Source of the DNA: a bacterium
GTDB lineage: Bacteria > Patescibacteriota > Gracilibacteria > UBA4473
NCBI GenBank assembly: GCA_018648585.1
Contig: JABGQW010000025.1
Coordinates: forward strand, 3,736 to 67,735
Direction of reading: 5' to 3'
Length of the DNA: 64,000 nucleotides
Shown piece by piece: positions 21,737-57,596 of this stretch. The position numbers were made by a program, and so were the translations under genes. The stretch's first letter is position 1; each line of letters begins with the position of its first letter. A model generated the notes under the pieces. It had not been told where the DNA came from. It did no database searches and saw nothing but the letters and a program-made list of their open reading frames with translations.

Positions 21737-22042
21737 CTAAAACGGCAAATCCTCCACCGCGGCGAAATCCCCACCAGGTGCTGGCGCGGCTTTTGGTGCA
21801 GATGGTACTGGGGCTGCGCTACGTTTTGACGGATCTGGTTTCCACGTGTCCACAACCAAATAATGCGTCATCCCGCTCGCACTCGGCGCTCGGCGTTCCA
21901 AAACATTTGCGTTGACCCAACCGTTGTCGAGATTTTCCTTCAATTTTTGAAGATCTGATTCCGAAAGACTCAGTTTGATCATTTCTCCGTACTGTGTCTG
22001 AATTTTTTTTGCGTTGCCGCAGTACACTTTTTCGTCTGCCAT
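21737..22042 (-). CDS. small protein ending in an SSB-like acidic tip (..AAVEDLPF); candidate ssDNA-binding or SSB-mimic protein
   Basis: 101 aa: a compact N-terminal domain, a Pro/Ala linker, then C-terminal EDLPF. Confidence 0.45.
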   Translation of the reverse strand: MADEKVYCGNAKKIQTQYGEMIKLSLSESDLQKLKENLDNGWVNANVLERRAPSASGMTHYLVVDTWKPDPSKRSAAPVPSAPKAAPAPGGDFAAVEDLPF

Positions 22043-22139: not shown

Positions 22140-22410
22140 ATTTCACATTCCCAACTCGAGTAGAAATCCATTTTCAAAACTTTTAACTCGAAACTCTGAA
22201 CTCTCAACTTTCTGAAAAACCTCCGGCAGGAATGAATTTTAAAATACTTGATTGGCTCGCTCCACTCGCCAATCTTCGAACATTTTTTGTTTTTAAAAAA
22301 CTTTAAACTCTGAACTCTCAACTTTTAACTTTTTAAAACTTTCTCTCAATTCCCCCTGACAAGGAGGCGAGGGGGTTGTTTTTTTTGAAACGATAAACCC
22401 TAAACTTTTC
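22140..22410. repeat. partial or degenerate copy of the modular intergenic repeat family
   Basis: Contains CATTCCCAACTCGAG..AAATCCA, AACTCTGAACTCTCAAC heptamers, and CCCCCTGACAAGGAGGCGAGGGGGTTG followed by a T8 run. Confidence 0.7.
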
Positions 22411-22414
22411 GCTC

Positions 22415-23395
22415 TCAAATTTTTTCCCGGCAACTCTCGGCCCAGCTTTTATTTTTTTGGTACCACTCGATCGTCAGCGGCAACGCCTGCTCAAAAGTGT
22501 GTGCCGGCGTCCACCCGAGTTCGCGCTGAATTTTCCCCGCATCGATCGCGTACCGTCGGTCGTGCGCTTTTCGATCCGTGACAAATTCGAGTTTTGAAAT
22601 TGAGCCCGTGGTTTTCAAAATTAAATCCGTGATTTCCAAATTTGTTTTTTCGTTGTGGCCGCCGATGTTCCAGATTTCGCCCGGCGCGGATTTTTCAAAA
22701 ATCAAACGAATCGCCTCGCAGTGATCCCGCACAAAAAGCCAGTCGCGGATATTTTTTCCGTCCCCGTACACCGGCAAATTTTCGCCATTCATCGCGCGAA
22801 ACAGAAAAAACGGAATCAATTTTTCGGGAAACTGGTACGGCCCGTAATTATTCGAACACCGTGAAATTGTCGCGTGCAATCCGTACGTGCGGTGCCACGA
22901 CTGCACGAGCAGATCCGCCGAAGCTTTTGCCGCGGCGTACGGACAATTGGGATCGATGGCTGTTTTTTCCGTGAAAAAATCTGACGAATTATCGCCGAGA
23001 TCTCCGTACACTTCGTCCGTCGAAACCTGGTGGTAGCGCGAAACTTCGTATTTTCGACACGATTCCAACAACGTGTGCGTCCCGACAAAATTGGTGCGAA
23101 TAAATGGCGACGAATCCTCAATCGAGCGATCCACGTGCGTTTCCGCTGCGAAATTAATGACGCCGTTGAATTTTTCGGTTGCAAAAAGTTCGTCGACAAA
23201 TTTTGCGTCTGAAATATCGCCCTGCGCAAATTTGTACCGAGAATCATTTTCAATTTCAGATAAATTTTCCAAATTTCCCGCATACGTCAGCAAATCTAAA
23301 TTTACGACATGCCAATCTGTTTTTTCGAGCGCGTGGTGAATAAAATTGGAACCGATAAATCCCGCGCCACCCGTGACCAATATTTTTTGTGCCAT
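22415..23395 (-). CDS. rfbB: dTDP-glucose 4,6-dehydratase
   Basis: GGAGFIGSNF Rossmann motif and catalytic YAAAKASAD (YxxxK). C-terminal region is typical of RmlB. Start moved in-frame to MAQKILVTGG. Confidence 0.92.
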   Translation of the reverse strand: MAQKILVTGGAGFIGSNFIHHALEKTDWHVVNLDLLTYAGNLENLSEIENDSRYKFAQGDISDAKFVDELFATEKFNGVINFAAETHVDRSIEDSSPFIRTNFVGTHTLLESCRKYEVSRYHQVSTDEVYGDLGDNSSDFFTEKTAIDPNCPYAAAKASADLLVQSWHRTYGLHATISRCSNNYGPYQFPEKLIPFFLFRAMNGENLPVYGDGKNIRDWLFVRDHCEAIRLIFEKSAPGEIWNIGGHNEKTNLEITDLILKTTGSISKLEFVTDRKAHDRRYAIDAGKIQRELGWTPAHTFEQALPLTIEWYQKNKSWAESCREKI

Positions 23396-23479
23396 TCTGC
23401 CACGCACGGTAGCAAATTTCCAAAAATCAGACAAAAAATCTGCTTGCATTTTGAACTGAAAAAAATAAACTCACGCTCG

Positions 23480-42217: not shown

Positions 42218-42982
42218 ATGTGTTTTCAAAAAAAATCATTCCCGGAAAAGGATCCGGAGAAAAATTTTTGCGACACAAGATTTTGTTTGCAATCCTGGCT
42301 CCTCGACGCATTTTTCCCGGCGAAATGTCTGACGTGCGGCCGCGCGGGCGATTTTTTGTGTGAAACACATCGCCAGTTTCCACCGGCGCCCCAGAACGAA
42401 GCGCAATTTCAACATCTCGATGAAATTTTTGCAGCCACCGAGTACTACGATCCGGTGGTGAAAAAGTCGGTAGAATTTTTTAAATTTCGCGGATTTTCAG
42501 CGTTGGCAAAAATTTTTGCAGAAACAATTGTCGAGCGCGTTCCCGATAATTTTTTAGAAAATGCGATTCTCGTGCCGATTCCCCTGCACTGGACACGGAA
42601 ACTTTGGCGCGGATTTAATCAAGCCGACGTGCTCGCACGAGCGATTTTGGAAAACCGAACCCGGGATCTAGATCCCGGGTTCGAATTAAAATTTGATTTA
42701 AAACGCGTTCGTCGCACGCACCAGCAAGCACGACTGGGAAAATCTGCTCGCAAAAAAAATCTTGACGATGCGTTTTTCTGGTGCGGAGAAAATCTGGCAG
42801 GGAAAAAAATCGTACTGGTCGACGATGTCGTCGCCAGCGGATCAACACTGGATGCGGCTGCCGCAGTACTGAAAAAATCTGGTGCAAAAGCAGTTCACGC
42901 GGTGGTTTTTGCGCGCGGCGGGAAAACCAAAGAACCCGGGTTCGATCAATCAAACACCGATTCAAAATCTTCCAGCGCCTGA
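42218..42982 (+). CDS. comF: ComF family protein (phosphoribosyltransferase domain)
   Basis: N-terminal Cys pairs CLTCG..CETH, RGFNQADVLARAI, PRT motif KKIVLVDDVVASGSTL. The 3' end overlaps the convergent RAYT gene by 37 nt. Confidence 0.88.
   Translation: MCFQKKSFPEKDPEKNFCDTRFCLQSWLLDAFFPAKCLTCGRAGDFLCETHRQFPPAPQNEAQFQHLDEIFAATEYYDPVVKKSVEFFKFRGFSALAKIFAETIVERVPDNFLENAILVPIPLHWTRKLWRGFNQADVLARAILENRTRDLDPGFELKFDLKRVRRTHQQARLGKSARKKNLDDAFFWCGENLAGKKIVLVDDVVASGSTLDAAAAVLKKSGAKAVHAVVFARGGKTKEPGFDQSNTDSKSSSA
42657..42682. repeat. REP-type perfect 26-nt palindrome inside the comF ORF
   Basis: GAACCCGGGATCTAGATCCCGGGTTC, identical to the copies at 43487 and 43574. Confidence 0.9.
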
Positions 42983-43443
42983 GCCGAATCCGCTTTTTCG
43001 CTCACCCACTCCCAATCTTGCGGATTTGAAACGATTTTATGATGCACCGCATTCTGCAAAATGTACTGCGTGAGCTGCGCGAGATATTCGTCATCGTCGA
43101 CCAATTTTGCTTGAAATCGCCCCTCAAAAACTGGCTGTTTCATTCCTTTTTTTACAGAATCACCGTATTTTGCGTTGAAAAATGCAGCGTACGACTGTTG
43201 AACGCGATTCATAAATTCTGATATTTTTGAATTGGGAGTTGGTTTTTCAAATATTAAAAAATGGAAATGGTTTGGTAATAAACACCACGCCAAAACTCGA
43301 ACCGACGGATACAAATCAAGATATCGAATAATATTTTCCCCAAATCGCTGAAAATCTCGATCCTCAAAAAAGAGTTGCTGCTTATTGTATCCACGGTTGT
43401 AGATATGATAAAACCGTTCCGTTTCCAATATTCTACGTGGCAT
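42946..43443 (-). CDS. REP-associated tyrosine transposase (RAYT; IS200/IS605 Y1 HUH family)
   Basis: HUH as LPNHFHFLI and a catalytic-Tyr helix QYILQNAVHHK. 165 aa. Palindromic REPs lie directly upstream. Confidence 0.85.
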   Translation of the reverse strand: MPRRILETERFYHIYNRGYNKQQLFFEDRDFQRFGENIIRYLDLYPSVRVLAWCLLPNHFHFLIFEKPTPNSKISEFMNRVQQSYAAFFNAKYGDSVKKGMKQPVFEGRFQAKLVDDDEYLAQLTQYILQNAVHHKIVSNPQDWEWVSEKADSAQALEDFESVFD

Positions 43444-43486
43444 CCTAATTATTGTATGTTAGTGAAAAATTGTCGTCAACTTTTTA

Positions 43487-43707
43487 GAACCCGGGATCTA
43501 GATCCCGGGTTCTAGTTTTCCACGAATCATTTGTTCGCCCACTCACATCCCTTGACATTTTTCGTTGTTTTTTGAACCCGGGATCTAGATCCCGGGTTCG
43601 GTTTCCTTCCTCATCCCGGGTTCGGTTTTTCCACAAATCATTTGTTCATCTCACCTCCCTTGACATTTTTCGTTGTTTTTTGAACCCGGGATCTAGAACC
43701 CGGGTTC
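43487..43707. repeat. REP cluster: three 26-nt palindromes plus one half-site, embedded in an ~87/108-nt direct repeat
   Basis: Palindromes at 43487-43512, 43574-43599 and 43682-43707 (1 mismatch); half-site at 43613-43623. The intervening segments (TTTTCCACgAATCATTTGTTC...CCCTTGACATTTTTCGTTGTTTTTT) are themselves duplicated. Confidence 0.9.
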
Positions 43708-43730
43708 GGTTTTAAAAAAAACCACCGCAC

Positions 43731-43847: not shown

Positions 43848-46800
43848 TTAGTCACTGTTTACTTTTGCAGTCGTGTCAATATTGAGCAAGTATCCGTTCA
43901 ACCAATCAGCAGATGTATCTGAGTGAGAAGTTGAAGACTCATCTGACCACACAACAGTTCCTGCTGCTGCAGCACGTGTTGTTGCACCGGCATGAGAATT
44001 ATCGGTTGAAATAGTAACAGACACTGTATCATCATCAGCCGCAGGCGTTCCTGCTGTTGTATTCTCCGTATTATTCATAAGAAGTGCGTACGTTCGAGAA
44101 TCACCAGCAGACAATTTCTGATTGGCGAATGTGACCGTAACCGTTCCAGTAATATCATCAGCTGCTGTGTACGTATCTGCAATCGCAGATGTTACAACCG
44201 CAGTATTGTCGATATTTCCGTCCGTTTTCACTTGTTTTACTTCGAATACAGCATCTGCTGAAGCTTTCATTCCAGCAAGATTCACTGTGAATTTCAATTT
44301 ACCCAATTCAATTTGACGTGCGCTATCCGCAGTCACGACAAATCGGTAAATTTCTTGTGAAGCCGCAAGCGGTGTTCCACTAAAATTCTGTGTTGCTGCG
44401 TGTCCAACCGACATTTCTGTTCGGTATGCGACAAACTCTTGTCCGGTGACAGAATTTGCAGTGACATTCGCTGTTGCCAAATCAGATCCAGTAGCAGCCG
44501 TAACTGCTTCCACTCCATTTTCTTGCTCAGATGTATCTAACGCAAGAGTAAGTCGTTTTCCTGTCTGATCAGCCTGAGTGATATCGCGAACACTCACTTT
44601 GATTGACACGTATGTCGACTCGTCTTTTGGAACGCTGATGCGATCCGCATTTCCGAGTTGGAAGTGAAGATCTCCGCCTGTCATCTGTTTTGTCTGAACA
44701 AGTTGTCCAGCAGCATTATAAAGCTTGAAATCTACGCGATCACCAATATCAGTTCCTCCAACTGAATTCGTAAAGTACAAATCTCTGATCTGAACTTCAT
44801 CATCAGCCGCGTTAAATCGAACACGCATCACTTCTACGTCTTGAGTACCTGCTACCAAGACATCTCCGTAAATGGTCGTTCCAAGATCAACGCTCAAACT
44901 TCCTGAATTCACCAATTCAAATTCATTTCCTCCCAAGGCCGTTGCACTAACCAACGCTGAACCATTGTACACGTAGACGGTTTGTCCATTCTCAACATTG
45001 TCTGCGTCCACCGCAGTCACTTCGATTTGCATTGTGTGTTTGAGATTCAATGCGGTAACTCCGTCGGTTTCAACTCCAACCGTACCATTTGCATCTCCAA
45101 CAACCACGGTACCAACCTCTGCTGAGTTCACATTTCCTGTGATAAATGGTGAAGCTGTTTCGGTGAGAATTGCTGCTGCTCCTGCACCTGTAACCGTATA
45201 TCCAAGTCCAGCCAATGCTGCTCGAAGGTAAGTTCCTTGTTCTGCCGCAGTTGGAGTAGCTCCAAGCTGCAAGCTTGCAACTCCGTCATCACACGTTGGG
45301 TCGGTGATAACACCATCTGCAACATAAGTCAAAACACAGATTGTGCTTCCTGCGTCGTCAGTAAGCGTAATTTTATCTCCTACTGCACCTGCTGTAGAGA
45401 TCGTCAATGTTGTCGCACCCGCTGTTCCTGCGGTTCCAATTGCGGAATCGAAGGTAAGAGTCGTCCCAGTCGCTGTAGTCAAGTTCTCTGTTGTAGTTGT
45501 TGATTCCAAAACAGTGTAGGTTGTTGCCGCAGCGCTTGCTGCGTTTTTGATCGTCAAATAAACATCCTCGTCTGCTTCGTACAAAGTAGCATCAGCAACT
45601 GTTGCTGTTGCGCTATTTGCAACGACCGTTGCAAGAGTTTCCGACACAACCCCTGCCGAAGCTTCGATCGTGTTGAAGACAACTGTAAATTCTTTTTGTC
45701 CTGCGGATGGAATCACAACAGACAAATCATTGAATGTTGCTGCTCCAGCTGAAGTCAGGTTTTTGCTTGATCCCTGCTGAGTTCCATCGACAAAGATTGC
45801 CGCGGTGTACTCCGTGTAGGTGTCCGCACTTCCTGTTCCAACTCCTTGGATCGATGCAGAAGTCACATTGACGTCTCCTGAATCATTGTTGTCCAAGACA
45901 AACTCCATAAAAGTCACATCATCCACTCCCGCGACGATTTTTCCACCGGAAAGTCCGTCACTTTTTGTGATTGAGATGCTTGAAACCTGCACTTCCACAA
46001 AAGAAGCAACTGCCGATCCCAACATTTGATCTGTCGGAACCTGATCTCCGGTCGAGATGTACTCTGGAGATTCGAAATCCGTCGAGTTCAAACTCACTTT
46101 GATGCTTGTTCCCGTCACTGCGTCTGAAGTAATATTACCAACCAATTTCATGATTGATGCTCCCGCGATTTCAAACGTAGTATCAAAAGCCAATACTGCG
46201 TCTGTTATACTTGGAGTGGTGCTTGCACTCGTGAAATTATTTTCACTGTCAACGAGCTGATCGTTCAAAAACAATCGGAAGTTGTCAAAATAAGTATTCA
46301 AATTAGTAAAAGCCGTCACTGTTGCACCAGACACTGTTGTGTCTACGATTCCCGAAGAATCTGCCAACTCAACCGTCACACCGTCCAACAAAAGTGGCTG
46401 GTCAACGACGATACGTGCTGTCATAAAAACAACATCGTTGGATCCGGGAGCGTACTCCTGATTTCCGAGAGATGCTGGATCTCGAGACACGTTCAAGTCT
46501 CCGCTGTCGATGGTGTAAGCCATCAAACGAGCACAATTGTCTTCTGCTGCTTCTGCTGTACAGCTCACACCCGTAGATGTAGCCCCTGTCGCTGAAGCAA
46601 AAGAATATCCATCTCCATTTCCGATTGCTTTGACTCCGAAGCTGGTGCCGATCTCGATCGCCACGATATCTTCGTAGTTGTCCACTTTGAAGTTGATGTT
46701 GTCTCCGTCCTCGGCGCTGACGATATCTGCTCGCATTGAGAAGATTCGTGAGTCACCGTCTTCGATGACGTATCCACCAGTCACACCGTTGTCCAATCGG

Positions 46801-48146
46801 AACGTGATGTAATCACCGTCCATGATTGTTTCGGCACTGACCTGCTCTCCGCTCACGTACAAAGCAACATTTTCGAGAATATTCTCGATTTCTGCCGTTC
46901 CGTCGTTTTTGAAGGTAACAGCTCGCAATTCAACATCTTTGTTGGTGTTTGAGCTATTTTGCATTCGGAATTTACCAATCTCGATAAAGTTGTCTCCAAC
47001 GTCGATGTTGGTGTTTGATCCAAGTGCTGAGAAAGTAACTTCTGACACTTCGTAATCTGCAACTTCCATTTCTTCTCCTTCGAGTGGAAAGTCTCCGACT
47101 ACGTTGGCTGCCGTGCTGCTGAGATCATCAGCGCTGACGACTGCCAATCGGTTGTGGTGTCCGATATTGTGATCATTCGTTCCGTATTTCGAAGAAGCCA
47201 CGATATCAGCCATCAAAGTCTGACCTGCTGGCACCACGATTGGTGGGTTGAAACGCAATTGAACAACATCGTCGTTGTTGATGGATGCGTCGTTTCCGAC
47301 TTTGAATCCGTCAATTTCCATCCACACGCTGTCGAAATCGTCGTTGTCTCCCAAACCGAGACGAGTCACGGTCAAGTTTGCAACTTCAACATCTGAATCA
47401 TCAGATGCTGTAAATTCGAAAGTTGTGTAGGGAACACTCGTTGCGTTAAATGGAACATTTGTTCCGCGAGGAGTATCGTTGGAGATTACCACCTCAAGCG
47501 TTCCTTCGGCTGGGCCGGTAGGAGCTGCTACAACCAACTGAGAATCGTAAACAACACGTGCCGTTTCTGCACGAGTCACAGGATTTGCGGGACCAAAAGT
47601 TCCGTCGCTGTATCCTGACATCAGTCCGTTGTTGTACGCAGTTTCAGCGTAGGTATAAAACCAATCGCTTGCTGCTACGTCTTTGAAGTGAGGGCCACCA
47701 GTCGTGTCGAGATCAATCTCGAACGCGTTGATAACCATTTTTGCCAATTCAACTCGGTTGATTCCGTTTCCAGGACGGAACGCTCCGTCTGGGTAACCGT
47801 CAATCCATCCGTAGTTGTACATAGTTTCGATGTAATCGTAAAACCATGCAGAAGTTGCTACGTCTGGGAAGTGAGGTCCTCCGTATGTATCGAGTTCAAC
47901 ACCTGAAGCTAAAACAATAACTTTGGCAACCTCGGCTCGGTTCAGCTGACGACTTGGGGCAAATGACCCGTCATCGTTTCCTGAAAGAACTCCTTGGTCC
48001 ATAAGTTCGCCGATAGCTTCCTCGGCCCATGATGGGATTTCTGACTCATCAGTGAAACCAAGATACGCGAATGTGGTCGCAGGTGCGATCATAAACGCCA
48101 TCCCAGCCAATGCCAATGAGGCGATCCCTTTCTTAAAGATATTCAT
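43848..48146 (-). CDS. S-layer protein with three N-terminal SLH domains
   Basis: Signal peptide MNIFKKGIASLALAGMAFMIAPATTFA. Three SLH repeats (F.D....W....I......G...G..DG.F.P.....R.E.A). About 1200 aa of T/A/V/G/D/S-rich beta-type sequence. Confidence 0.88.
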   Translation of the reverse strand: MNIFKKGIASLALAGMAFMIAPATTFAYLGFTDESEIPSWAEEAIGELMDQGVLSGNDDGSFAPSRQLNRAEVAKVIVLASGVELDTYGGPHFPDVATSAWFYDYIETMYNYGWIDGYPDGAFRPGNGINRVELAKMVINAFEIDLDTTGGPHFKDVAASDWFYTYAETAYNNGLMSGYSDGTFGPANPVTRAETARVVYDSQLVVAAPTGPAEGTLEVVISNDTPRGTNVPFNATSVPYTTFEFTASDDSDVEVANLTVTRLGLGDNDDFDSVWMEIDGFKVGNDASINNDDVVQLRFNPPIVVPAGQTLMADIVASSKYGTNDHNIGHHNRLAVVSADDLSSTAANVVGDFPLEGEEMEVADYEVSEVTFSALGSNTNIDVGDNFIEIGKFRMQNSSNTNKDVELRAVTFKNDGTAEIENILENVALYVSGEQVSAETIMDGDYITFRLDNGVTGGYVIEDGDSRIFSMRADIVSAEDGDNINFKVDNYEDIVAIEIGTSFGVKAIGNGDGYSFASATGATSTGVSCTAEAAEDNCARLMAYTIDSGDLNVSRDPASLGNQEYAPGSNDVVFMTARIVVDQPLLLDGVTVELADSSGIVDTTVSGATVTAFTNLNTYFDNFRLFLNDQLVDSENNFTSASTTPSITDAVLAFDTTFEIAGASIMKLVGNITSDAVTGTSIKVSLNSTDFESPEYISTGDQVPTDQMLGSAVASFVEVQVSSISITKSDGLSGGKIVAGVDDVTFMEFVLDNNDSGDVNVTSASIQGVGTGSADTYTEYTAAIFVDGTQQGSSKNLTSAGAATFNDLSVVIPSAGQKEFTVVFNTIEASAGVVSETLATVVANSATATVADATLYEADEDVYLTIKNAASAAATTYTVLESTTTTENLTTATGTTLTFDSAIGTAGTAGATTLTISTAGAVGDKITLTDDAGSTICVLTYVADGVITDPTCDDGVASLQLGATPTAAEQGTYLRAALAGLGYTVTGAGAAAILTETASPFITGNVNSAEVGTVVVGDANGTVGVETDGVTALNLKHTMQIEVTAVDADNVENGQTVYVYNGSALVSATALGGNEFELVNSGSLSVDLGTTIYGDVLVAGTQDVEVMRVRFNAADDEVQIRDLYFTNSVGGTDIGDRVDFKLYNAAGQLVQTKQMTGGDLHFQLGNADRISVPKDESTYVSIKVSVRDITQADQTGKRLTLALDTSEQENGVEAVTAATGSDLATANVTANSVTGQEFVAYRTEMSVGHAATQNFSGTPLAASQEIYRFVVTADSARQIELGKLKFTVNLAGMKASADAVFEVKQVKTDGNIDNTAVVTSAIADTYTAADDITGTVTVTFANQKLSAGDSRTYALLMNNTENTTAGTPAADDDTVSVTISTDNSHAGATTRAAAAGTVVWSDESSTSHSDTSADWLNGYLLNIDTTAKVNSD

Positions 48147-48482
48147 CTTCTAAGGGTTTAAAAACTAAAAATAAAAAGTGGGTGTTCAGAAAAAACTTCT
48201 GAACTTTATGAAAAAGTTGAAAAATCTCATTTTTTGGTGGCCCGGACAAAAAAAACTGAATTTTATCGAGCCCGAGCAAACGATAAAATTTCATTTTTCG
48301 GTGGACAATCCACAAAAAAAATGACAAAAGTGCCATTTTGGCACCATTAAAATGTGGTCATTTCAGACCAGTTGAGAAAAAGTTTGACGATCTGTCAAAG
48401 AGCCCTAATCCTTGCTCTGTCGCATAATCCCGCGAGCAGAGCGCAAGTGTGACATTGTAATGACGCACTTTGGATCACTGGC

Positions 48483-48510
48483 ATCGTACCGAATCAACAC
48501 AAACTGTCAA
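48483..48510 (-). promoter_or_regulatory. candidate sigma-70 promoter of the S-layer gene
   Basis: Minus strand TTGACA-N16-TACGAT. It implies a ~330-nt 5' UTR containing hairpin GTGCCA-ttt-TGGCAC. Confidence 0.4.
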
Positions 48511-48599
48511 TCGCCCCGAGCCGCTTATTGAAACGAATTTTTTAAGAATTTGTTACATCTTTTTTTGATTTTTTTTCTCAATAAAAAATCATCCCCACT

Positions 48600-49487
48600 T
48601 CTTCATTTCCAACTCGATTGAAAATCCATTTTCTTCCAAAAGAAACGCACCGCCCCCCTCATTCCCAACTCCTCCCGCTCCTCATTCCCAACTTGATTGG
48701 GAATCCAGAAAAATAGATCCCCGTTTTCACGGGAATGAGAATTTTTACCATTTTTAAAAAGAACGCAGATCTGCATTCTCTACTTTTTTAACTCTGAACT
48801 CTAAACTCTGAACTCTCAACTTTTTGAAACTTTCTCTCAATTCCCCCTGACAAGGGGGCGAGGGGGTTGTTTTTTTTCATTCCCAACTCGATTGGGAATC
48901 CAGAAAAATAGATCCCCGTTTTCACGGGAATGAGAATTTTTACTATTTTTAAAAAGAACGCAGATCTGCATTCTCTACTTTTTTAACTCTGAACTCTGAA
49001 CTCTGAACTCTCAACTTTTTGAAACTTTCTCTCAATTCCCCCTGACAAGGGGGCGAGGGGGTTGTTTTTTTTCATTCCCAACTCGATTGGGAATCCAGAA
49101 AAATAGATCCCCGTTTTCACGGGAATGAGAATTTTTACTATTTTTAAAAAGAACGCAGATCTGCATTCTCTACTTTTTTAACTCTGAACTCTGAACTCTG
49201 AACTCTCAAACTCTAAACTTTTTAAAACTTTCCCTGCATTCCCCCTGACAAGGGGGCGAGGGGGTTGTTTTTTTTCATTCCCAACTCGATTGGGAATCCA
49301 GAAAAATAGATCCCCGTTTTCACGGGAATGAGAATTTTTACTATTTTTAAAAAGAACGCAGATCTGCATTCTCTACTTTTTTAACTCTGAACTCTGAACT
49401 CTGAACTCTCAAACTCTAAACTTTTTAAAACTTTCCCTGCATTCCCCCTGACAAGGGGGCGAGGGGGTTGTTTTTTTCAACGCGAAA
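48600..49487. repeat. modular tandem repeat array: 4 full units plus a degenerate leading copy
   Basis: Unit starts at ~48683, 48878, 49073 and 49276 (periods 195, 195, 203, 202 nt). The units are near-identical. See findings. Confidence 0.92.
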
Positions 49488-49493
49488 CTTTTT

Positions 49494-49958
49494 CTATTTC
49501 ACCGCATCCTGAAATTCTTGAAACGAGTCGCGACTCTGCTCGGCACCTTCGCGAATTTTTCGAATCGCGTCCTGCAGCTGTTCTGCCGCTGATTTCGCCT
49601 GCTTGTATCGCTGCTCCAAATCAACCAGTTTTTCTTCCATTTTTGTTTTTTGTGTCTCGAGTTCAATTTTTTTTTCGACCAACTGTCGCTCAAATTCTTC
49701 CGGTGAAAGATCAAGCGCCTGAAGTTTTTCCGGTAAATTTTTCAAATTTTCAACAAGTGACTCGTACACCTGTTGCAAATCCTCGTGCTGCCCCCCCAAA
49801 AGTTCCGCACGTTCTGCGTCCGTCTGACTTCCCACAAAATCTTCAAAAAAAATGCGCGCCTGAAAAAGTCGGCCGTCCAAAACAATTTTTCCAGATTCCG
49901 TACCAGAAAAAACCCACAACCCGCCAAGCGCCACCGCACACAAAAAAAATTTTTTCAT
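49494..49958 (-). CDS. secreted or membrane-anchored coiled-coil protein
   Basis: Hydrophobic N-terminus MKKFFLCAVALGGLWVF followed by E/K/Q-rich helices. Start moved in-frame to that Met. Confidence 0.55.
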   Translation of the reverse strand: MKKFFLCAVALGGLWVFSGTESGKIVLDGRLFQARIFFEDFVGSQTDAERAELLGGQHEDLQQVYESLVENLKNLPEKLQALDLSPEEFERQLVEKKIELETQKTKMEEKLVDLEQRYKQAKSAAEQLQDAIRKIREGAEQSRDSFQEFQDAVK

Positions 49959-50039
49959 TTTCCAAAAAATCAACCGCAGCTTGCCACGAAATGAGAATTT
50001 TGACAATTTTTAAACTCGAAACTCTCAACTCAAAACTCT

Positions 50040-50245
50040 CAACTTTTTTGAATTTTTAAAACTTTCTCTGCATTCCCCCTGACAAGGGGGCAAGGGGGTT
50101 GCTTTTTTTTGTTTTTAAAAAACTCGCAACTTTTCGGAACGCAGCTCTGCATTCCCTACTTTTTAAAAAACTCTGAACTCTTAACTTTTAACTTTTTTAA
50201 AACTCTGAACTCTGAACTCTTAACTTTTAACTCTAAACTCCCCCT
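50040..50245. repeat. partial copy of the modular repeat family
   Basis: CCCCCTGACAAGGGGGCAAGGGGGTTGC plus a T-run, GGAACGCAGCTCTGCATTCC, and AACTCTGAACTCTGAACTCTTAAC heptamers. Confidence 0.8.
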
Positions 50246-50577
50246 CAATTTCCCCCATCGCTGAGCAACTCTCGAATGTCAGAACCGTGAAAATTATTCA
50301 ACTGCTCGGAAATCCCACGAACGGATTCTGGCGACAAAACGCGAATCGGCACAATCGGCAGCTGCACGCGCTCTGGTCGCGTGTCGAGATCTTTTTTCAA
50401 AAGCCCCTCCATCGTCACCCGCGCATCGCAGTGCGGACAAAAAAACTGAAACGCCAAACTTTCTTCGTCTGCCGACATCACATCCAGCTCCGCACCAGTC
50501 AATTTTTGACGGCAACGCGGGCACGGAATGTGCTCCAGAATTTCGTCCACCAATTTCGTAACATTTCGAAAATCCAT
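50245..50577 (-). CDS. zinc-ribbon protein
   Basis: CPRC...(26 aa)...CPHC. Start moved in-frame to MDFRNV. Confidence 0.5.
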   Translation of the reverse strand: MDFRNVTKLVDEILEHIPCPRCRQKLTGAELDVMSADEESLAFQFFCPHCDARVTMEGLLKKDLDTRPERVQLPIVPIRVLSPESVRGISEQLNNFHGSDIRELLSDGGN

Positions 50578-55669: not shown

Positions 55670-55689
55670 CGCGAGACATTCTCGCGGGG

Positions 55690-55960
55690 AATTCGAAAAC
55701 TTTCAACTGAAAAAAAACTTTCCGATTCTCCGGAACGCAGATCTGCGTTCCCTGCTTTTTTAAAACTCGAAACTCTCAACTTTTCACTCCAGCTTCTCAT
55801 TCCCAACTCGATTGGGAATCCAAGAAAATAGATTCCCGTTTTCACGGGAATGAGAATTTTTATCATTTTTAAAAAAAACGCAGGTCTGAGTTCCCTCCTT
55901 TTTTAACTCTAAACTTTTAACTCTGAACTTTTCCCAACTCTAAACTCTCAACTTTCAACT
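55690..55960. repeat. copy of the modular repeat family (modules in a different order)
   Basis: Perfect 20-nt palindrome GGAACGCAGATCTGCGTTCC (55732-55751). Also CATTCCCAACTCGATTGGGAATCCA, CCCGTTTTCACGGGAATGAGAATTTTTA, and heptamer-like AACTCTA/AACTTTT runs. Confidence 0.85.
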
Positions 55961-55961
55961 T

Positions 55962-57596
55962 TTAACTTTTTTCTCCCGCGACGCGCTGCACCTCGTCGAA
56001 CGTGGTGATCCCGGACAAAACTTTGAGAATTCCATCCTCGCGCAACGTGAGAAAATCTGAATTTTCGCGTAAAAATTGTAAAATTTTAATTTCGGAATCG
56101 CCGTGCAAAATCATTTCGCGAATTTCGTCGGTGACAAAAAATGCTTCGCAGATCGCGATCTGATCGTGAAATCCCGTGTTCGAACATTTTTCGCAGCCGA
56201 CCGCGACAGGAATTTTTTCAGGAAATTTGAGGTCGGGAAAAATGCGTTGCAGGTTTTGAAGTTCGGCTGCCGCAGCTTTTTGGAGCACAGAAATCGGCTG
56301 CTCGCCCGCGCAGTGCGGACAAACTCGGCGCACGAGTTTTTGCGCAAAAACAGCGTTGACCGTCGGCGCGATGTTGTAATTTTCCATTCCCATATTTCGC
56401 AGGCGGGAAACCGCTCCGATTGCAGAATTTGTGTGCAGCGACGACAGCACCGTGTGTCCGGTCAGCGCCGCTTCGAAAGCAAGTCGCGCCGTGCCGATCG
56501 TCCGCACTTCTCCGACTAAAATTACGTCCGGATCGTGACGCAGCAACGATTTGAATCCTGTTTCGAAATTGTACGCGCGGTCTTCGTTGACCTGCGACTG
56601 CGAAACGCCCGGCAGGTGGTACTCGATCGGATCTTCGAGCGTGACGAGTTTTTGTTCCGGTAAATTGAGTTCGGCGAGCATCGAGTACAACGTCGTGGTT
56701 TTTCCCGATCCAGTCGGCCCAGTGACCAGCACGATTCCATTTTTTTGGTGCAACGATTTCAAAATTTTTTCTTCCGCGTGCGGCGCAAATCCCAGTTCGG
56801 AAAAAGTCCGAATTCCACGATTCGAATCGAGAACTCGCATCACGACCGATTCGAGCGTCGGCGTCGGCAGCGTCGAAACACGCAGATCGACGAGTCGGCC
56901 GTTGACGCGGATCGCGGCGTGCCCGTCCTGCGGCGCGTCGGAAATATTGGATTTCATCCCAGATTCGAATTTGATGCGCGAGATCAGCGATTCCGCGATT
57001 TCGGGAGAAAGTCGGAGCGCGTCGTGCAAAACTCCGTCAACCCGCAGCCGGAGCACCACGCCGTCGACGACTGGTTGAAAATGAATGTCGCTCGCGCCGA
57101 TCGCGACCGATTCCACTTCGATTTCCGCGAGCGCACTTTTTGCCGGGAGATTTGAAATTTTTTTCTCGAGTTCCGCAAAATTTTGCAGCGTGGATTCCAG
57201 TTTTGTTTCGTGTTCTTCAACTTGGTCGCGAACCGCGACAGAATGTTTTTTCAAAATCTGTACGTCGTAATTTTTCAGCGCACGATCAAATCCGTCGCGC
57301 GAACAAATGTACACTTCGAGTTCGTATTTTTTCTGGAGTTCGGCAAATAATTTTTTCGTTTCGGCGGCCGAGGGTTCGACGATCGCCACGCGCAATTTTT
57401 TTCCAATTTTTTCGAACGGAAACAGTTCTGCTTTTTCTGATTCTTCTGCAGAAATAATTTTCAAAATATCCAAATTGATCGGAAATTCCGCAACATCGAC
57501 GTACTCAAATCCAAGTTTGGCCGCGCGTTCCCGCGTGGCGCGTTCTTGAAAATCACGATTGATTTTCAAAATTGAACCCGAAGAAGAATTTGCCAT
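55962..57596 (-). CDS. pilB: type IV pilus assembly ATPase (PilB/GspE family)
   Basis: GSPII_E N-terminal domain, Walker A GPTGSGKTTT, tetracysteine CPHC...CEKC. Start moved in-frame to MANSSSGS. Confidence 0.92.
   Translation of the reverse strand: MANSSSGSILKINRDFQERATRERAAKLGFEYVDVAEFPINLDILKIISAEESEKAELFPFEKIGKKLRVAIVEPSAAETKKLFAELQKKYELEVYICSRDGFDRALKNYDVQILKKHSVAVRDQVEEHETKLESTLQNFAELEKKISNLPAKSALAEIEVESVAIGASDIHFQPVVDGVVLRLRVDGVLHDALRLSPEIAESLISRIKFESGMKSNISDAPQDGHAAIRVNGRLVDLRVSTLPTPTLESVVMRVLDSNRGIRTFSELGFAPHAEEKILKSLHQKNGIVLVTGPTGSGKTTTLYSMLAELNLPEQKLVTLEDPIEYHLPGVSQSQVNEDRAYNFETGFKSLLRHDPDVILVGEVRTIGTARLAFEAALTGHTVLSSLHTNSAIGAVSRLRNMGMENYNIAPTVNAVFAQKLVRRVCPHCAGEQPISVLQKAAAAELQNLQRIFPDLKFPEKIPVAVGCEKCSNTGFHDQIAICEAFFVTDEIREMILHGDSEIKILQFLRENSDFLTLREDGILKVLSGITTFDEVQRVAGEKS

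What the first reader, a model, noticed from the sequence alone, without database searches (positions are those of the whole stretch)
48600..49487. 0.9-kb modular tandem repeat array (4 units of 195-203 nt) between two minus-strand genes, upstream of the S-layer promoter
No credible ORF is present. Four near-identical head-to-tail units start at ~48683, 48878, 49073 and 49276, preceded by a degenerate partial copy. Each unit is a fixed string of five modules. (a) An 8-bp hairpin ATTCCCAA-ctcga-TTGGGAAT. (b) A hairpin CCCGT-tttc-ACGGG followed by GAATGAGAATTTTTAC. (c) The palindrome GAACGCAGATCTGCATTC flanked by an A5 run and a T-run, which is terminator-like on both strands. (d) A heptanucleotide microsatellite (AACTCTG)n whose copy number and variants differ between units and account for the 195 versus 203 nt periods. 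(e) CCCCC-tgacaa-GGGGG-cga-GGGGG followed by T8, in which two alternative G5 partners compete for one C5. This is more structured than a REP or BIME cluster. Possible roles are a stack of transcription insulators shielding the highly expressed S-layer gene, a protein-binding array (GGGAAT recurs in modules a and b), a family of small structured RNAs, or a non-autonomous mobile element amplified in situ.
Basis: seen in the sequence. Interest (0 to 1): 0.72.

Follow-up and report, generated by a model that had tools for sequence, protein, structure and literature searches.

The report
Tandemly amplified mosaic hairpin repeat (BIME-like)
The 0.9-kb array is real, but it is a species-specific, copy-number-unstable tandem amplification of a ~195-nt dispersed intergenic repeat built from small hairpin modules, the candidate-phyla-radiation counterpart of the REP/BIME clusters of E. 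coli, rather than a dedicated regulatory device of the S-layer gene.

Summary
In detail: four head-to-tail units (195, 195, 203, 203 nt; 97% identical) lie at 48683-49478, preceded by a degenerate partial copy, between a small secreted-protein gene and the S-layer gene. Independent assemblies break inside the array or carry only two units, but their junctions support at least three units, so copy number is uncertain or polymorphic. The modules are not unique to this spacer. Partial units sit in three other intergenic regions of the window, one complete single unit (85-89% identical) lies at an unrelated locus, and another Gracilibacteria genus shows the same module order with different stems. 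S-layer orthologs have 384-927-nt upstream spacers without units or arrays. Module c is GTAG plus a palindrome, which is REP-like, and b is a hairpin with its head on the opposite strand. A RAYT-like transposase lies 5 kb away, but its flanking palindromes are different. Hairpins b and c fold better on the gene-sense strand, where each is followed by a T-run. No promoter, ORF or Rfam family was found in the units. Best reading: a BIME-like mosaic repeat amplified in situ by unequal recombination, with at most an incidental terminator or insulator effect. The 24-nt core of module e is identical across several phyla and occurs in frame inside genes; this is unexplained.

The parts
48599..48682 (-). 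Degenerate partial copy: an a-like hairpin (ATTTCCAACTCGATTGAAAAT) plus a duplicated start of module a (CATTCCCAACT)
   Evidence: (D6)
48683..48877 (-). Unit 1 (195 nt; private SNPs at unit positions 12, 67, 121; 195-type 3' half)
   Evidence: also present in L001/L002/L058
48878..49072 (-). Unit 2 (195 nt). A hybrid: 5' part like units 3/4, 3' part like unit 1
49073..49275 (-). Unit 3 (203 nt; has the 8-nt heptamer-tract insertion AAACTCTA)
   Evidence: the 203-type to u4 junction is also seen in L003
49276..49478 (-). Unit 4 (203 nt; identical to unit 3 except for the last base)
   Evidence: present in L001-L004
48879..48899 (-). Module a (example from unit 2): 8-9 bp hairpin ATTCCCAA-CTCGA-TTGGGAAT
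   Evidence: (-10.2 kcal/mol); compensatory variants in L056 and L059
48912..48943 (-). Module b (unit 2). On the gene-sense strand it is the hairpin AUUCCCGUGAAAACGGGGAU followed by CUAUUUUU. On the plus strand it has an ATAGA head. The tail is GAATGAGAATTTTTAC
   Evidence: (terminator-like on the minus strand)
48956..48978 (-). Module c (unit 2). REP-like: on the minus strand, GTAG-A-GAATGCAGATCTGCGTTC followed by T5
   Evidence: (-10.5 kcal/mol, z -3.8 on minus; -4.8 on plus)
48985..49016 (-). Module d (unit 2): heptamer microsatellite (AACTCTN)n, with 4-5 repeats per unit
49038..49072 (+). Module e (unit 2): CCCCC-TGACAA-GGGGG-CGA-GGGGG followed by TTG-T8. It is terminator-like only on the plus strand. 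The 24-nt core is shared across phyla
48483..48510 (-). The only sigma-70-like promoter match in 48100-50300 (TTGACA-16-TACGAT). It lies about 340 nt upstream of the S-layer ATG and about 90 nt downstream of the degenerate copy
43848..48146 (-). S-layer (SLH-domain) protein gene, 1432 aa, downstream of the array
49494..49958 (-). Upstream 154-aa gene (signal peptide plus coiled coil). A divergent b-d-e partial unit lies directly upstream of its ATG
49965..50255 (-). Dispersed partial units in the next spacer (b', d, e, then c, d)
55688..55970 (-). Dispersed partial units (c, d, a, b, c', d). The a-b block is nearly identical to the array's
22147..22385 (-). Dispersed partial unit (a', d, a different terminator hairpin, d, e) just after the stop codon of the 22415-23449(-) gene
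42946..43443 (-). RAYT-like Y1 transposase (HUH = HFHFL; Tyr in QYILQNAV). It is a candidate but unproven mobilising enzyme
   Evidence: (NF047646, 72.8 bits, cutoff 80)
42657..43707 (.). Private palindrome cluster GAACCCGGG(A/T)TC bracketing the RAYT-like gene, including a 108-nt tandem repeat at 43502-43712

Best explanation
The array is a local tandem amplification of a ~195-nt mosaic intergenic repeat. It has at least 3 copies (4 in this assembly), and the number is either polymorphic or collapsed in other assemblies. The host is a Gracilibacteria/Peregrinibacteria-type CPR bacterium.

The unit is a fixed string of short hairpin modules. In gene-sense order after a stop codon these are: the e core; a slippage-prone heptamer tract; a REP-like GTAG+palindrome (c) with a T-run; hairpin b, headed on the other strand, also with a T-run; and hairpin a.

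Shown:
- The same unit and sub-strings of it are dispersed at unrelated intergenic sites of this lineage.
- A different genus has the same module order with different, compensating stems.
- The orthologous S-layer spacer in relatives lacks the array.

Inferred:
- The composite spreads as REP/BIME-type elements do, by single-strand hairpin recognition by a Y1/RAYT-type enzyme or by recombination.
- Once two adjacent copies existed, unequal crossing-over or replication slippage expanded them. The hybrid unit 2 and the perfectly duplicated units 3/4 point to this.
- Transcripts from the upstream gene meet two hairpin+U-tract terminators or 3'-end stabilisers per unit (c and b), and antisense transcripts meet e plus U8. 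The cluster would therefore incidentally insulate the S-layer promoter from read-through. This looks like a by-product of a largely selfish or neutral repeat, not an evolved S-layer device.
For: Reality and instability of the array:
- searches show the array itself.
- searches show contigs breaking in it, a 2-unit versus 4-unit difference, independently confirmed junctions, and the hybrid unit 2.

Dispersal:
- Modules occur at 22.1-22.4, 49.97-50.26 and 55.7-56.0 kb of the window.
- One complete unit, 85-89% identical, lies at a locus whose flanks do not match the window, with an SLH-protein ORF running into module e.
- A 188-nt e-d-hairpin composite is 91% identical next to an unrelated GDH-like gene.

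Not conserved at the orthologous site:
- Syntenic relatives have 384-542-nt spacers (927 nt in L059) with no unit hits and no arrays.

REP/BIME character:
- c reads GTAG+palindrome.
- Many GTAG-G[variable palindrome] elements occur in CPR loci. GTAGA-TCCCG..CGGGA occurs 5 times in 14 kb of L059, in both orientations.
- A RAYT-like gene lies 5 kb away, with the HUH and Tyr motifs, and its position is conserved in relatives.

Conserved architecture with covarying stems:
- 95.5% of cells paired and 19 of 27 pairs with double changes, against 4-10 in slid controls. This alignment was fitted to the model, so it is biased towards the structure.

Strand of structure:
- The whole unit folds at -58.6 kcal/mol (z -3.2) on the minus strand and -47.6 (z -1.9) on the plus strand.
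- c folds at -10.5 versus -4.8 kcal/mol and b at -11.1 versus -7.2.
- All 6 imperfect pairs of b and c in this lineage are G.U on the gene-sense strand.

Other roles lack support:
- Terminator-like calls fall in every unit, and there is no promoter-like site in the units.
- No Rfam family matches.
Against: - The palindromes flanking the RAYT-like gene (GAACCCGGGWTC) are not modules a-e and occur only next to that gene, so no enzyme is linked to the unit.
- The RAYT model score (72.8 bits) is below NCBIfam's cutoff of 80.
- Unlike classical BIMEs, b and c differ in sequence, b's head is ATAG rather than GTAG in this species, and the unit carries extra modules (a, d, e).
- Composite units are co-oriented with the flanking genes at every locus where I could judge it: 4 loci in the window, L055, L056 and 3 loci of isolate A1. 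This would also fit a selected 3'-UTR or terminator cassette.
- Only about 64 kb of this genome and a handful of other contigs could be examined, so genome-wide copy number is unknown. The metagenome scan with the lineage-specific d-e junction found only 4 loci.
- No transcription data are available.
Confidence: 0.6

Rival explanations
1. Selected insulator or terminator stack. The repeated cassette is maintained because it stops read-through from the upstream genes (via c and b) and antisense transcription (via e), protecting the very highly expressed S-layer gene and its long leader.
For: - Hairpin+T-run signals occur in every unit on the gene-sense strand, and e plus T8 on the other strand.
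- Stems are optimised on the transcribed strand.
- The e-(d)-c-b-a cassette sits directly after stop codons, co-oriented with genes, in two genera.
- The array lies just upstream of the only promoter-like site.
Against: - Orthologous S-layer spacers in five relatives have no array and no units.
- Copy number differs between assemblies.
- Elsewhere a single cassette is the rule, and no other arrays were found.
- The module-like hairpins seen in L059 (a-like and b-like, similar in layout but not in sequence) lie in the opposite orientation to the S-layer gene.
Confidence: 0.17
2. Regulatory DNA upstream of the S-layer promoter: an array of protein-binding sites (heptamers AGAGTTC, GGGAAT half-sites, phased A-tracts) or tandem promoters that boost or phase-vary S-layer expression.
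For: - It is positioned about 90-1000 nt upstream of the promoter-like site.
- The heptamer number varies between units.
- Heptamer-like motifs recur in other spacers, and as the palindrome GAGTTCGAACTC in relative L062.
Against: - No sigma-70-like promoter lies in any unit.
- The same modules lie downstream of unrelated genes.
- The array is absent from orthologous promoters.
- The heptamer tract is too far from the -35/-10 for classical phase variation.
Confidence: 0.07
3. Array of small structured RNA genes, one per unit.
For: The unit folds significantly better than shuffles on the minus strand (z -3.2). Three helices covary across copies.
Against: - No Rfam match even at E<=1 beyond noise.
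- No promoter-like site per unit.
- The helices are simple terminator/REP-type hairpins, and the units are not conserved in relatives.
Confidence: 0.05
4. Assembly artefact: a single unit, or two units, expanded by the assembler.
For: - Units 3 and 4 are identical but for one base.
- Most contigs break in the array, and one assembly has only two units.
Against: - Assemblers collapse repeats rather than expand them.
- Three distinct unit types exist.
- The u1-to-next-unit junction and the 203-type-to-u4 junction are each seen in separate assemblies (L058, L003).
- Even the shortest version has two tandem units.
Confidence: 0.05

Closest known systems
BIME (bacterial interspersed mosaic elements), especially BIME-2 clusters of E. 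coli, made of REP sequences
   Same: - Extragenic position.
- A mosaic of short imperfect palindromes plus fixed linker motifs.
- Palindromes with a GTAG head (module c).
- Two hairpins whose heads lie on opposite strands.
- The whole motif string iterated head-to-tail with variable copy number.
- Located in 3' flanks between co-directional genes.
- A RAYT-type Y1 transposase gene in the genome.
(The BIME/REP definitions come from my own knowledge and from the abstract of PMC2817692 listed.)
   Different: - The unit is longer (195-203 nt) and has five modules, including a heptamer microsatellite and the e core.
- b and c are unrelated in sequence, and b lacks GTAG here.
- The palindromes that flank the RAYT-like gene are a different sequence.
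- The host is a CPR bacterium with a genome of about 1 Mb.
- No sequence similarity to enterobacterial REPs.
BOX elements of Streptococcus pneumoniae / MIRU-VNTR of mycobacteria (own knowledge)
   Same: Dispersed, modular intergenic repeats in which a sub-module or the whole unit varies in tandem copy number between strains. They form stable stem-loops and are co-oriented with the flanking genes.
   Different: No sequence relation. MIRUs are 40-100 nt and carry small overlapping ORFs, whereas no conserved ORF is present here. BOX has an A-Bn-C layout with no REP-type heads.
Intrinsic (Rho-independent) terminators
   Same: c (stem -10.5 kcal/mol plus U5) and b (stem plus CUAUUUUU) on the gene-sense strand, and e plus U8 on the other strand, fit the hairpin+U-tract consensus.
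   Different: They are embedded in a repeated, dispersed composite. In other genomes the e core is usually followed by only 2-4 T, so it is not primarily a terminator.
Rickettsia palindromic elements (RPE) and other small repeats that insert in frame into ORFs (own knowledge)
   Same: The 24-nt e core occurs in frame inside long ORFs. Examples are the 8-aa insert PPDKGARG in a LeuRS, an in-frame copy in a prephenate-dehydratase-like ORF, and the C-terminus of an SLH protein.
   Different: It is far shorter than RPEs (24 nt versus about 100-150 nt) and is identical across several phyla.

Membership tests
REP (repetitive extragenic palindromic) elements | Short (about 20-40 nt) imperfect palindrome located outside genes | tested here: met
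   Modules a, b and c are 18-22-nt imperfect palindromes in intergenic DNA.
REP (repetitive extragenic palindromic) elements | Conserved GT(A/G)G tetranucleotide at the 5' side of the palindrome | tested here: inconclusive
   c has GTAG in all 4 units, at 50147-50159 and in L056, but GCAG or GGAG in the two copies at 55.7-55.9 kb. b has ATAG here and GTAG in L059. a and e have none.
REP (repetitive extragenic palindromic) elements | High copy number dispersed over the genome | tested here: inconclusive
   There are 4 loci in 64 kb plus 2 unrelated loci in metagenome contigs. The rest of the genome was not available.
REP (repetitive extragenic palindromic) elements | Cognate RAYT gene flanked by the same REPs | tested here: not met
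   A RAYT-like gene is present (NF047646, E 2.6e-20, 72.8 bits, below the cutoff of 80). However, it is flanked by GAACCCGGGWTC palindromes that occur nowhere else in the window and are not modules a-e.
BIME | Mosaic of REPs in alternating orientation separated by conserved linker motifs | tested here: inconclusive
   The head of b lies on the plus strand and the head of c on the minus strand, with fixed linkers. But b and c are different sequences, and b's head is degenerate.
BIME | Tandem iteration of the mosaic with variable copy number (BIME-2 type) | tested here: met
   4 units in the window, 2 in L001/L002, and junction evidence for 3 or more.
BIME | Binding of IHF, DNA gyrase or Pol I | not testable with these tools
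   This needs biochemistry.
MITE | Terminal inverted repeats at the two ends of the element | tested here: not met
   The unit ends (CATTCCCAAC... and ...GGGGGTTGTTTT) are not inverted copies of each other. The inverted repeats found by the repeat finder are all module-internal palindromes or pairs of c copies in different units.
MITE | Target-site duplication and a related autonomous IS | tested here: inconclusive
   The single unit in L056 is bracketed by a 12-nt direct repeat, CCCTCGTTCCCA, but this equals the unit's own first 12 nt. No IS with matching ends was found.
Intrinsic terminator | G+C-containing hairpin followed directly by a U-tract on the transcribed strand | tested here: met
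   b is called in every unit on the minus strand. c has a 10-bp stem (-10.5 kcal/mol) plus U5. Activity was not tested.
Described RNA families (Rfam 15) | Covariance-model match at or near the gathering score | tested here: not met
   There are no matches at gathering score other than two tRNAs elsewhere in the window. At E<=1 there are only two noise-level hits next to the array, not in it.
CRISPR array | Short direct repeats separated by unique spacers | tested here: not met
   The units are contiguous and 97% identical over their full 195-203 nt, with no unique spacers.

The most novel reading that the evidence does not exclude
The units are built around a previously undescribed, ultra-short (24-nt) hairpin element, CCCCCTGACAAGGGGGCNAGGGGG. 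It is identical in Gracilibacteria, Peribacteria, Nitrospina, Poribacteria and other sponge symbionts, Chloroflexota and Saccharibacteria, and it inserts in frame into essential genes. In Gracilibacteria it anchors a conserved post-stop-codon cassette (e, then a REP-like c, then b, then a) whose stems covary between genera. If this is right, there is an unknown cross-phylum mobilisation or templated-insertion mechanism, and a functional 3'-end RNA/DNA module specific to CPR bacteria. The 0.9-kb array would be its most amplified instance.
Probability: 0.2. Interest if true: 0.7.

Novelty: new variant of a known kind. Interest (0 to 1): 0.4.

Why it matters
CPR bacteria have very small, streamlined genomes, so proliferating mosaic hairpin repeats are not what one would expect there. 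Examples are a 0.9-kb tandem cluster and copies that enter ORFs in frame. I found nothing on them in the literature I could search.

Practically, the array is a site where short-read MAG assemblies break or collapse, because 6 of the 8 contigs shown end in it. It would also be a natural VNTR-type marker for strain tracking.

Biologically, it offers a test bed for three questions: whether RAYT/REP systems operate in CPR, how terminator or insulator signals are supplied around the most highly expressed gene of these cells, and what spreads a 24-nt hairpin across phyla.

Tried and rejected
- Rfam at gathering and permissive thresholds, on the window and on 7 loci: nothing relevant.
- Literature search for the e-core sequence and for the MAG accession: no papers. 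The search for CPR repeat literature returned only general REP/MITE papers.
- Viral-contig scans for the e core and for module c: 0 hits each, so there is no phage link.
- PDB sequence search with the RAYT-like protein: no hit at E<=0.01.
- I tested whether L055 is the ortholog of the 22.2-kb locus. It is not, because the flanking protein is unrelated, which turned the result into evidence for dispersal.
- I looked for a transposase in the ~900-nt repeat that carries the e core in a sponge symbiont (L015/L019): none found.
- I looked for arrays of modular units in all other loci with TRF: none.
- A replication origin or iterons: rejected. There is no skew switch and no dnaA context.
- Coding repeats: rejected. 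All frames are interrupted.
- Tandem promoters: rejected for now. No promoter-like site lies in the units.
- The window's own species did not appear in the GTDB representative scan, so a genome-wide census was not possible.

Full report
**1. Observation**

The repeat is there. Tandem Repeats Finder reports 48682-49477 with period 195, 4.0 copies and 97% matches. The repeat finder gives start-to-start spacings of 195, 195 and 203 nt. The units start at 48683, 48878, 49073 and 49276, and a degenerate partial copy lies at 48599-48682.

The 195/203 difference is an 8-nt indel in the heptamer tract plus four SNPs. Unit 1 has three private SNPs. Unit 2 is a hybrid, with a 5' part like units 3/4 and a 3' part like unit 1. 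Units 3 and 4 differ only in the last base.

No ORF longer than 63 aa crosses the array. The flanks are a 1432-aa SLH-domain protein (43848-48146, minus strand) and a 154-aa signal-peptide/coiled-coil protein whose likely start is the ATG at 49958.

**2. Is it an assembly artefact?**

The small protein is encoded on 22 public contigs. Of the eight shown, six stop 64-277 nt after the gene, inside the array. A contig from the S-layer side (L058) stops 16 nt beyond unit 1.

One 79.8-kb k141 contig, also deposited as GCA_018673235.1, spans the spacer with only two units, u1 plus u4, giving a 950-nt spacer against 1348 nt here. L003, from a different assembly, shows a 203-type 3' end joined to unit 4, and L058 shows unit 1 joined to a further unit.

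The repeat is therefore real, with at least three units supported. The number four is not secure, and the locus is either polymorphic or collapsed in some assemblies.

**3. The modules are not specific to this spacer**

In the window they recur in three other regions: 22147-22385, 49965-50255 and 55688-55970. They are always on the same strand and always between minus-strand genes.

A metagenome scan with the lineage-specific d-e junction found two further loci, each represented by two contigs:
- L054/L056 carry one complete a-e unit, 85-89% identical, in a context that otherwise does not match the window. An SLH-protein ORF runs into module e there.
- L055/L057 carry 188 nt that are 91% identical to window 22204-22385, but next to a GDH-like gene unrelated to the window's neighbour.

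This is dispersal, not synteny.

**4. Lineage and comparison with relatives**

NCBI names the S-layer homologs Candidatus Gracilibacteria or Peregrinibacteria. Syntenic relatives keep the order small genes, S-layer gene, Y1 transposase, SMC-like ATPase. One of them is a circular 1.33-Mb genome. Their S-layer upstream spacers are 384-542 nt (927 nt in L059) and contain no unit matches and no arrays. The array is therefore a recent, species-specific addition of about 0.9 kb to an ordinary promoter/leader spacer.

**5. What the modules are**

Read on the gene-sense (minus) strand, module c is AAAAAA-GTAG-A-GAATGCAGATCTGCGTTC-TTTTT. That is a GTAG head plus a palindrome, the REP layout. The CPR loci I fetched are full of GTAG-G[variable palindrome]C-TTTT elements. 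In L059 a b-like element, GTAGA-TCCCGTTTCAAGAACGGGA, occurs five times in 14 kb in both orientations. In the window b has its (degenerate, ATAGA) head on the plus strand, so b and c form a pair with heads on opposite strands, and the whole string is iterated. This is the BIME pattern.

A Y1 transposase 5 kb away (42946-43443) matches NCBIfam's REP-associated tyrosine transposase over its full length. The score is 72.8 bits, just under the cutoff of 80. It has HUH (HFHFL) and the tyrosine motif, and its position is conserved in relatives. It is bracketed by its own palindromes, GAACCCGGG(A/T)TC, which occur nowhere else in the window. Its ortholog in L062 is bracketed by a different palindrome. 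No enzyme can therefore be tied to modules a-e.

**6. Architecture is conserved while stems change**

Another Gracilibacteria genus (isolate A1) has, after stop codons and co-oriented with the genes, the order e core, GTAG-palindrome, ATTCC...GGAAT hairpin, with different stem sequences.

A covariance model of c-b-a recovers these at E of about 0.0003-0.02 (E-values from this model are rough). On the fitted alignment, 95.5% of cells pair and 19 of 27 pairs show double changes, against 4-10 in slid controls. The alignment is fitted to the model, so this overstates the case.

L059 has a-like hairpins with the same CTYGA loop and three compensatory stem changes.

**7. Which strand matters**

| Element | Minus (gene-sense) strand | Plus strand |
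|---|---|---|
| Whole unit | -58.6 kcal/mol (z -3.2) | -47.6 kcal/mol (z -1.9) |
| Hairpin c | -10.5 kcal/mol | -4.8 kcal/mol |
| Hairpin b | -11.1 kcal/mol | -7.2 kcal/mol |

All six imperfect pairs of b and c in this lineage are G.U on the gene-sense strand and C.A on the other. In L059 the modules are flipped relative to the genes, and the wobbles flip with them. The counts are small and not all independent.

The gene-sense strand is also expected to be the lagging-strand template, given the negative GC skew on the plus strand. The asymmetry therefore fits either RNA hairpins or single-strand DNA hairpins.

On that strand b and c are each followed by a T-run, and b is called terminator-like in every unit. 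The only promoter-like site lies outside the units, at 48510-48483. Module e plus T8 is terminator-like only on the opposite strand.

**8. The e core**

The 24-nt pattern, with two free positions, hits 45 loci in species-representative genomes. These include Gracilibacteria (about 17 loci in one MAG), Peribacteria, Nitrospina, Poribacteria and other sponge symbionts, Chloroflexota, Saccharibacteria and others, all with unrelated flanks.

Next to gene ends it is mostly antisense to the upstream gene, and about 11 copies lie inside long ORFs. In L051 it encodes PPDKGARG within a LeuRS, and the closest homolog (75-78% identical) lacks exactly those residues. It is absent from viral contigs, and I found no literature on it. 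I cannot explain its spread.

**9. Verdict**

The finding is a real, unstable tandem amplification of a dispersed mosaic hairpin repeat. The closest known kind is a BIME-2-type REP cluster, but membership in REP sensu stricto fails on the cognate-RAYT criterion.

The most likely mechanism of formation is spread of the composite followed by unequal crossing-over or slippage. The hybrid unit 2, the duplicated units 3/4 and the heptamer indels point this way.

The most likely effect is redundant termination or 3'-end stabilisation between the upstream gene and the S-layer promoter, as a by-product. A selected insulator role, a regulatory array, sRNA genes and an assembly artefact are less likely, for the reasons listed under the rival explanations.

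Noticed in passing
window 42657-43707 (gene 42946-43443, minus strand): A RAYT-like Y1 transposase sits directly downstream of the S-layer gene. It is bracketed by a private cluster of GAACCCGGG(A/T)TC palindromes, including a 108-nt tandem repeat at 43502-43712. The gene's position (S-layer, then RAYT, then SMC-like ATPase) is conserved in relatives L062, L066 and L067, but the flanking palindromes differ (GGATCCGGATCC in L062).
   Followed up: partly
L009-L053 (genome-contig hits); window 22352, 48843, 49038, 49241, 49444, 50075: The 24-nt core of module e (CCCCCTGACAAGGNGGCNAGGGGG) is identical in MAGs labelled as at least six phyla, with unrelated flanks. It is absent from viral contigs, and I found no literature on it.
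   Followed up: partly
L051 1017-1040; L010 3553-3576; L048 322-345; L056 1400-1423; L062 9921-9953: Small palindromic elements lie in frame inside ORFs. The e core gives an 8-aa insert, PPDKGARG, in a LeuRS that the closest homolog lacks. The same insert occurs in a prephenate-dehydratase-like ORF in two MAGs, and the e core forms the C-terminus of an SLH protein. A GGATCCGGATCC palindrome encodes DPDPTPDPDP inside the RAYT ortholog itself.
   Followed up: partly
window 48329-48370 (minus strand): Two terminator-like hairpins (GGTGCCAAAATGGCACT plus a T-run; TGGTCTGAAATGACCA) lie inside the ~340-nt leader between the promoter-like site (48510-48483) and the S-layer ATG. This could be an attenuator or an mRNA-stabilising leader.
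   Followed up: no
window 49958 vs 50006: The mechanical ORF of the small upstream gene starts at a TTG (50006) inside a repeat module. The ATG at 49958 gives a typical signal peptide (MKKFFLCAVALGG...) and is the start used by public gene calls.
   Followed up: yes
window 21740-22040 (minus strand): An unannotated-looking small ORF of about 100 aa (MADEKVYCGNAKKIQTQYGEMIKLS...) lies immediately downstream of the 22.1-22.4-kb module cluster.
   Followed up: no
L059 4074-5003 and 9401-11700: In a different genus, the S-layer gene is also surrounded by long spacers packed with small hairpin repeats (GTAGATCCCGTTTCAAGAACGGGA five times; GTCCTGAACTTGATTCAGGAT twice). They are not in tandem arrays and occur in both orientations.
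   Followed up: partly
L026 1-792: A Poribacteria locus fetched through the e-core scan starts with what looks like a CRISPR array (37-nt repeat GTTTGGAAGAAGTTTCCCGATTGAAGGGAATTGAAAC, period 74-75). It is unrelated to the finding.
   Followed up: no
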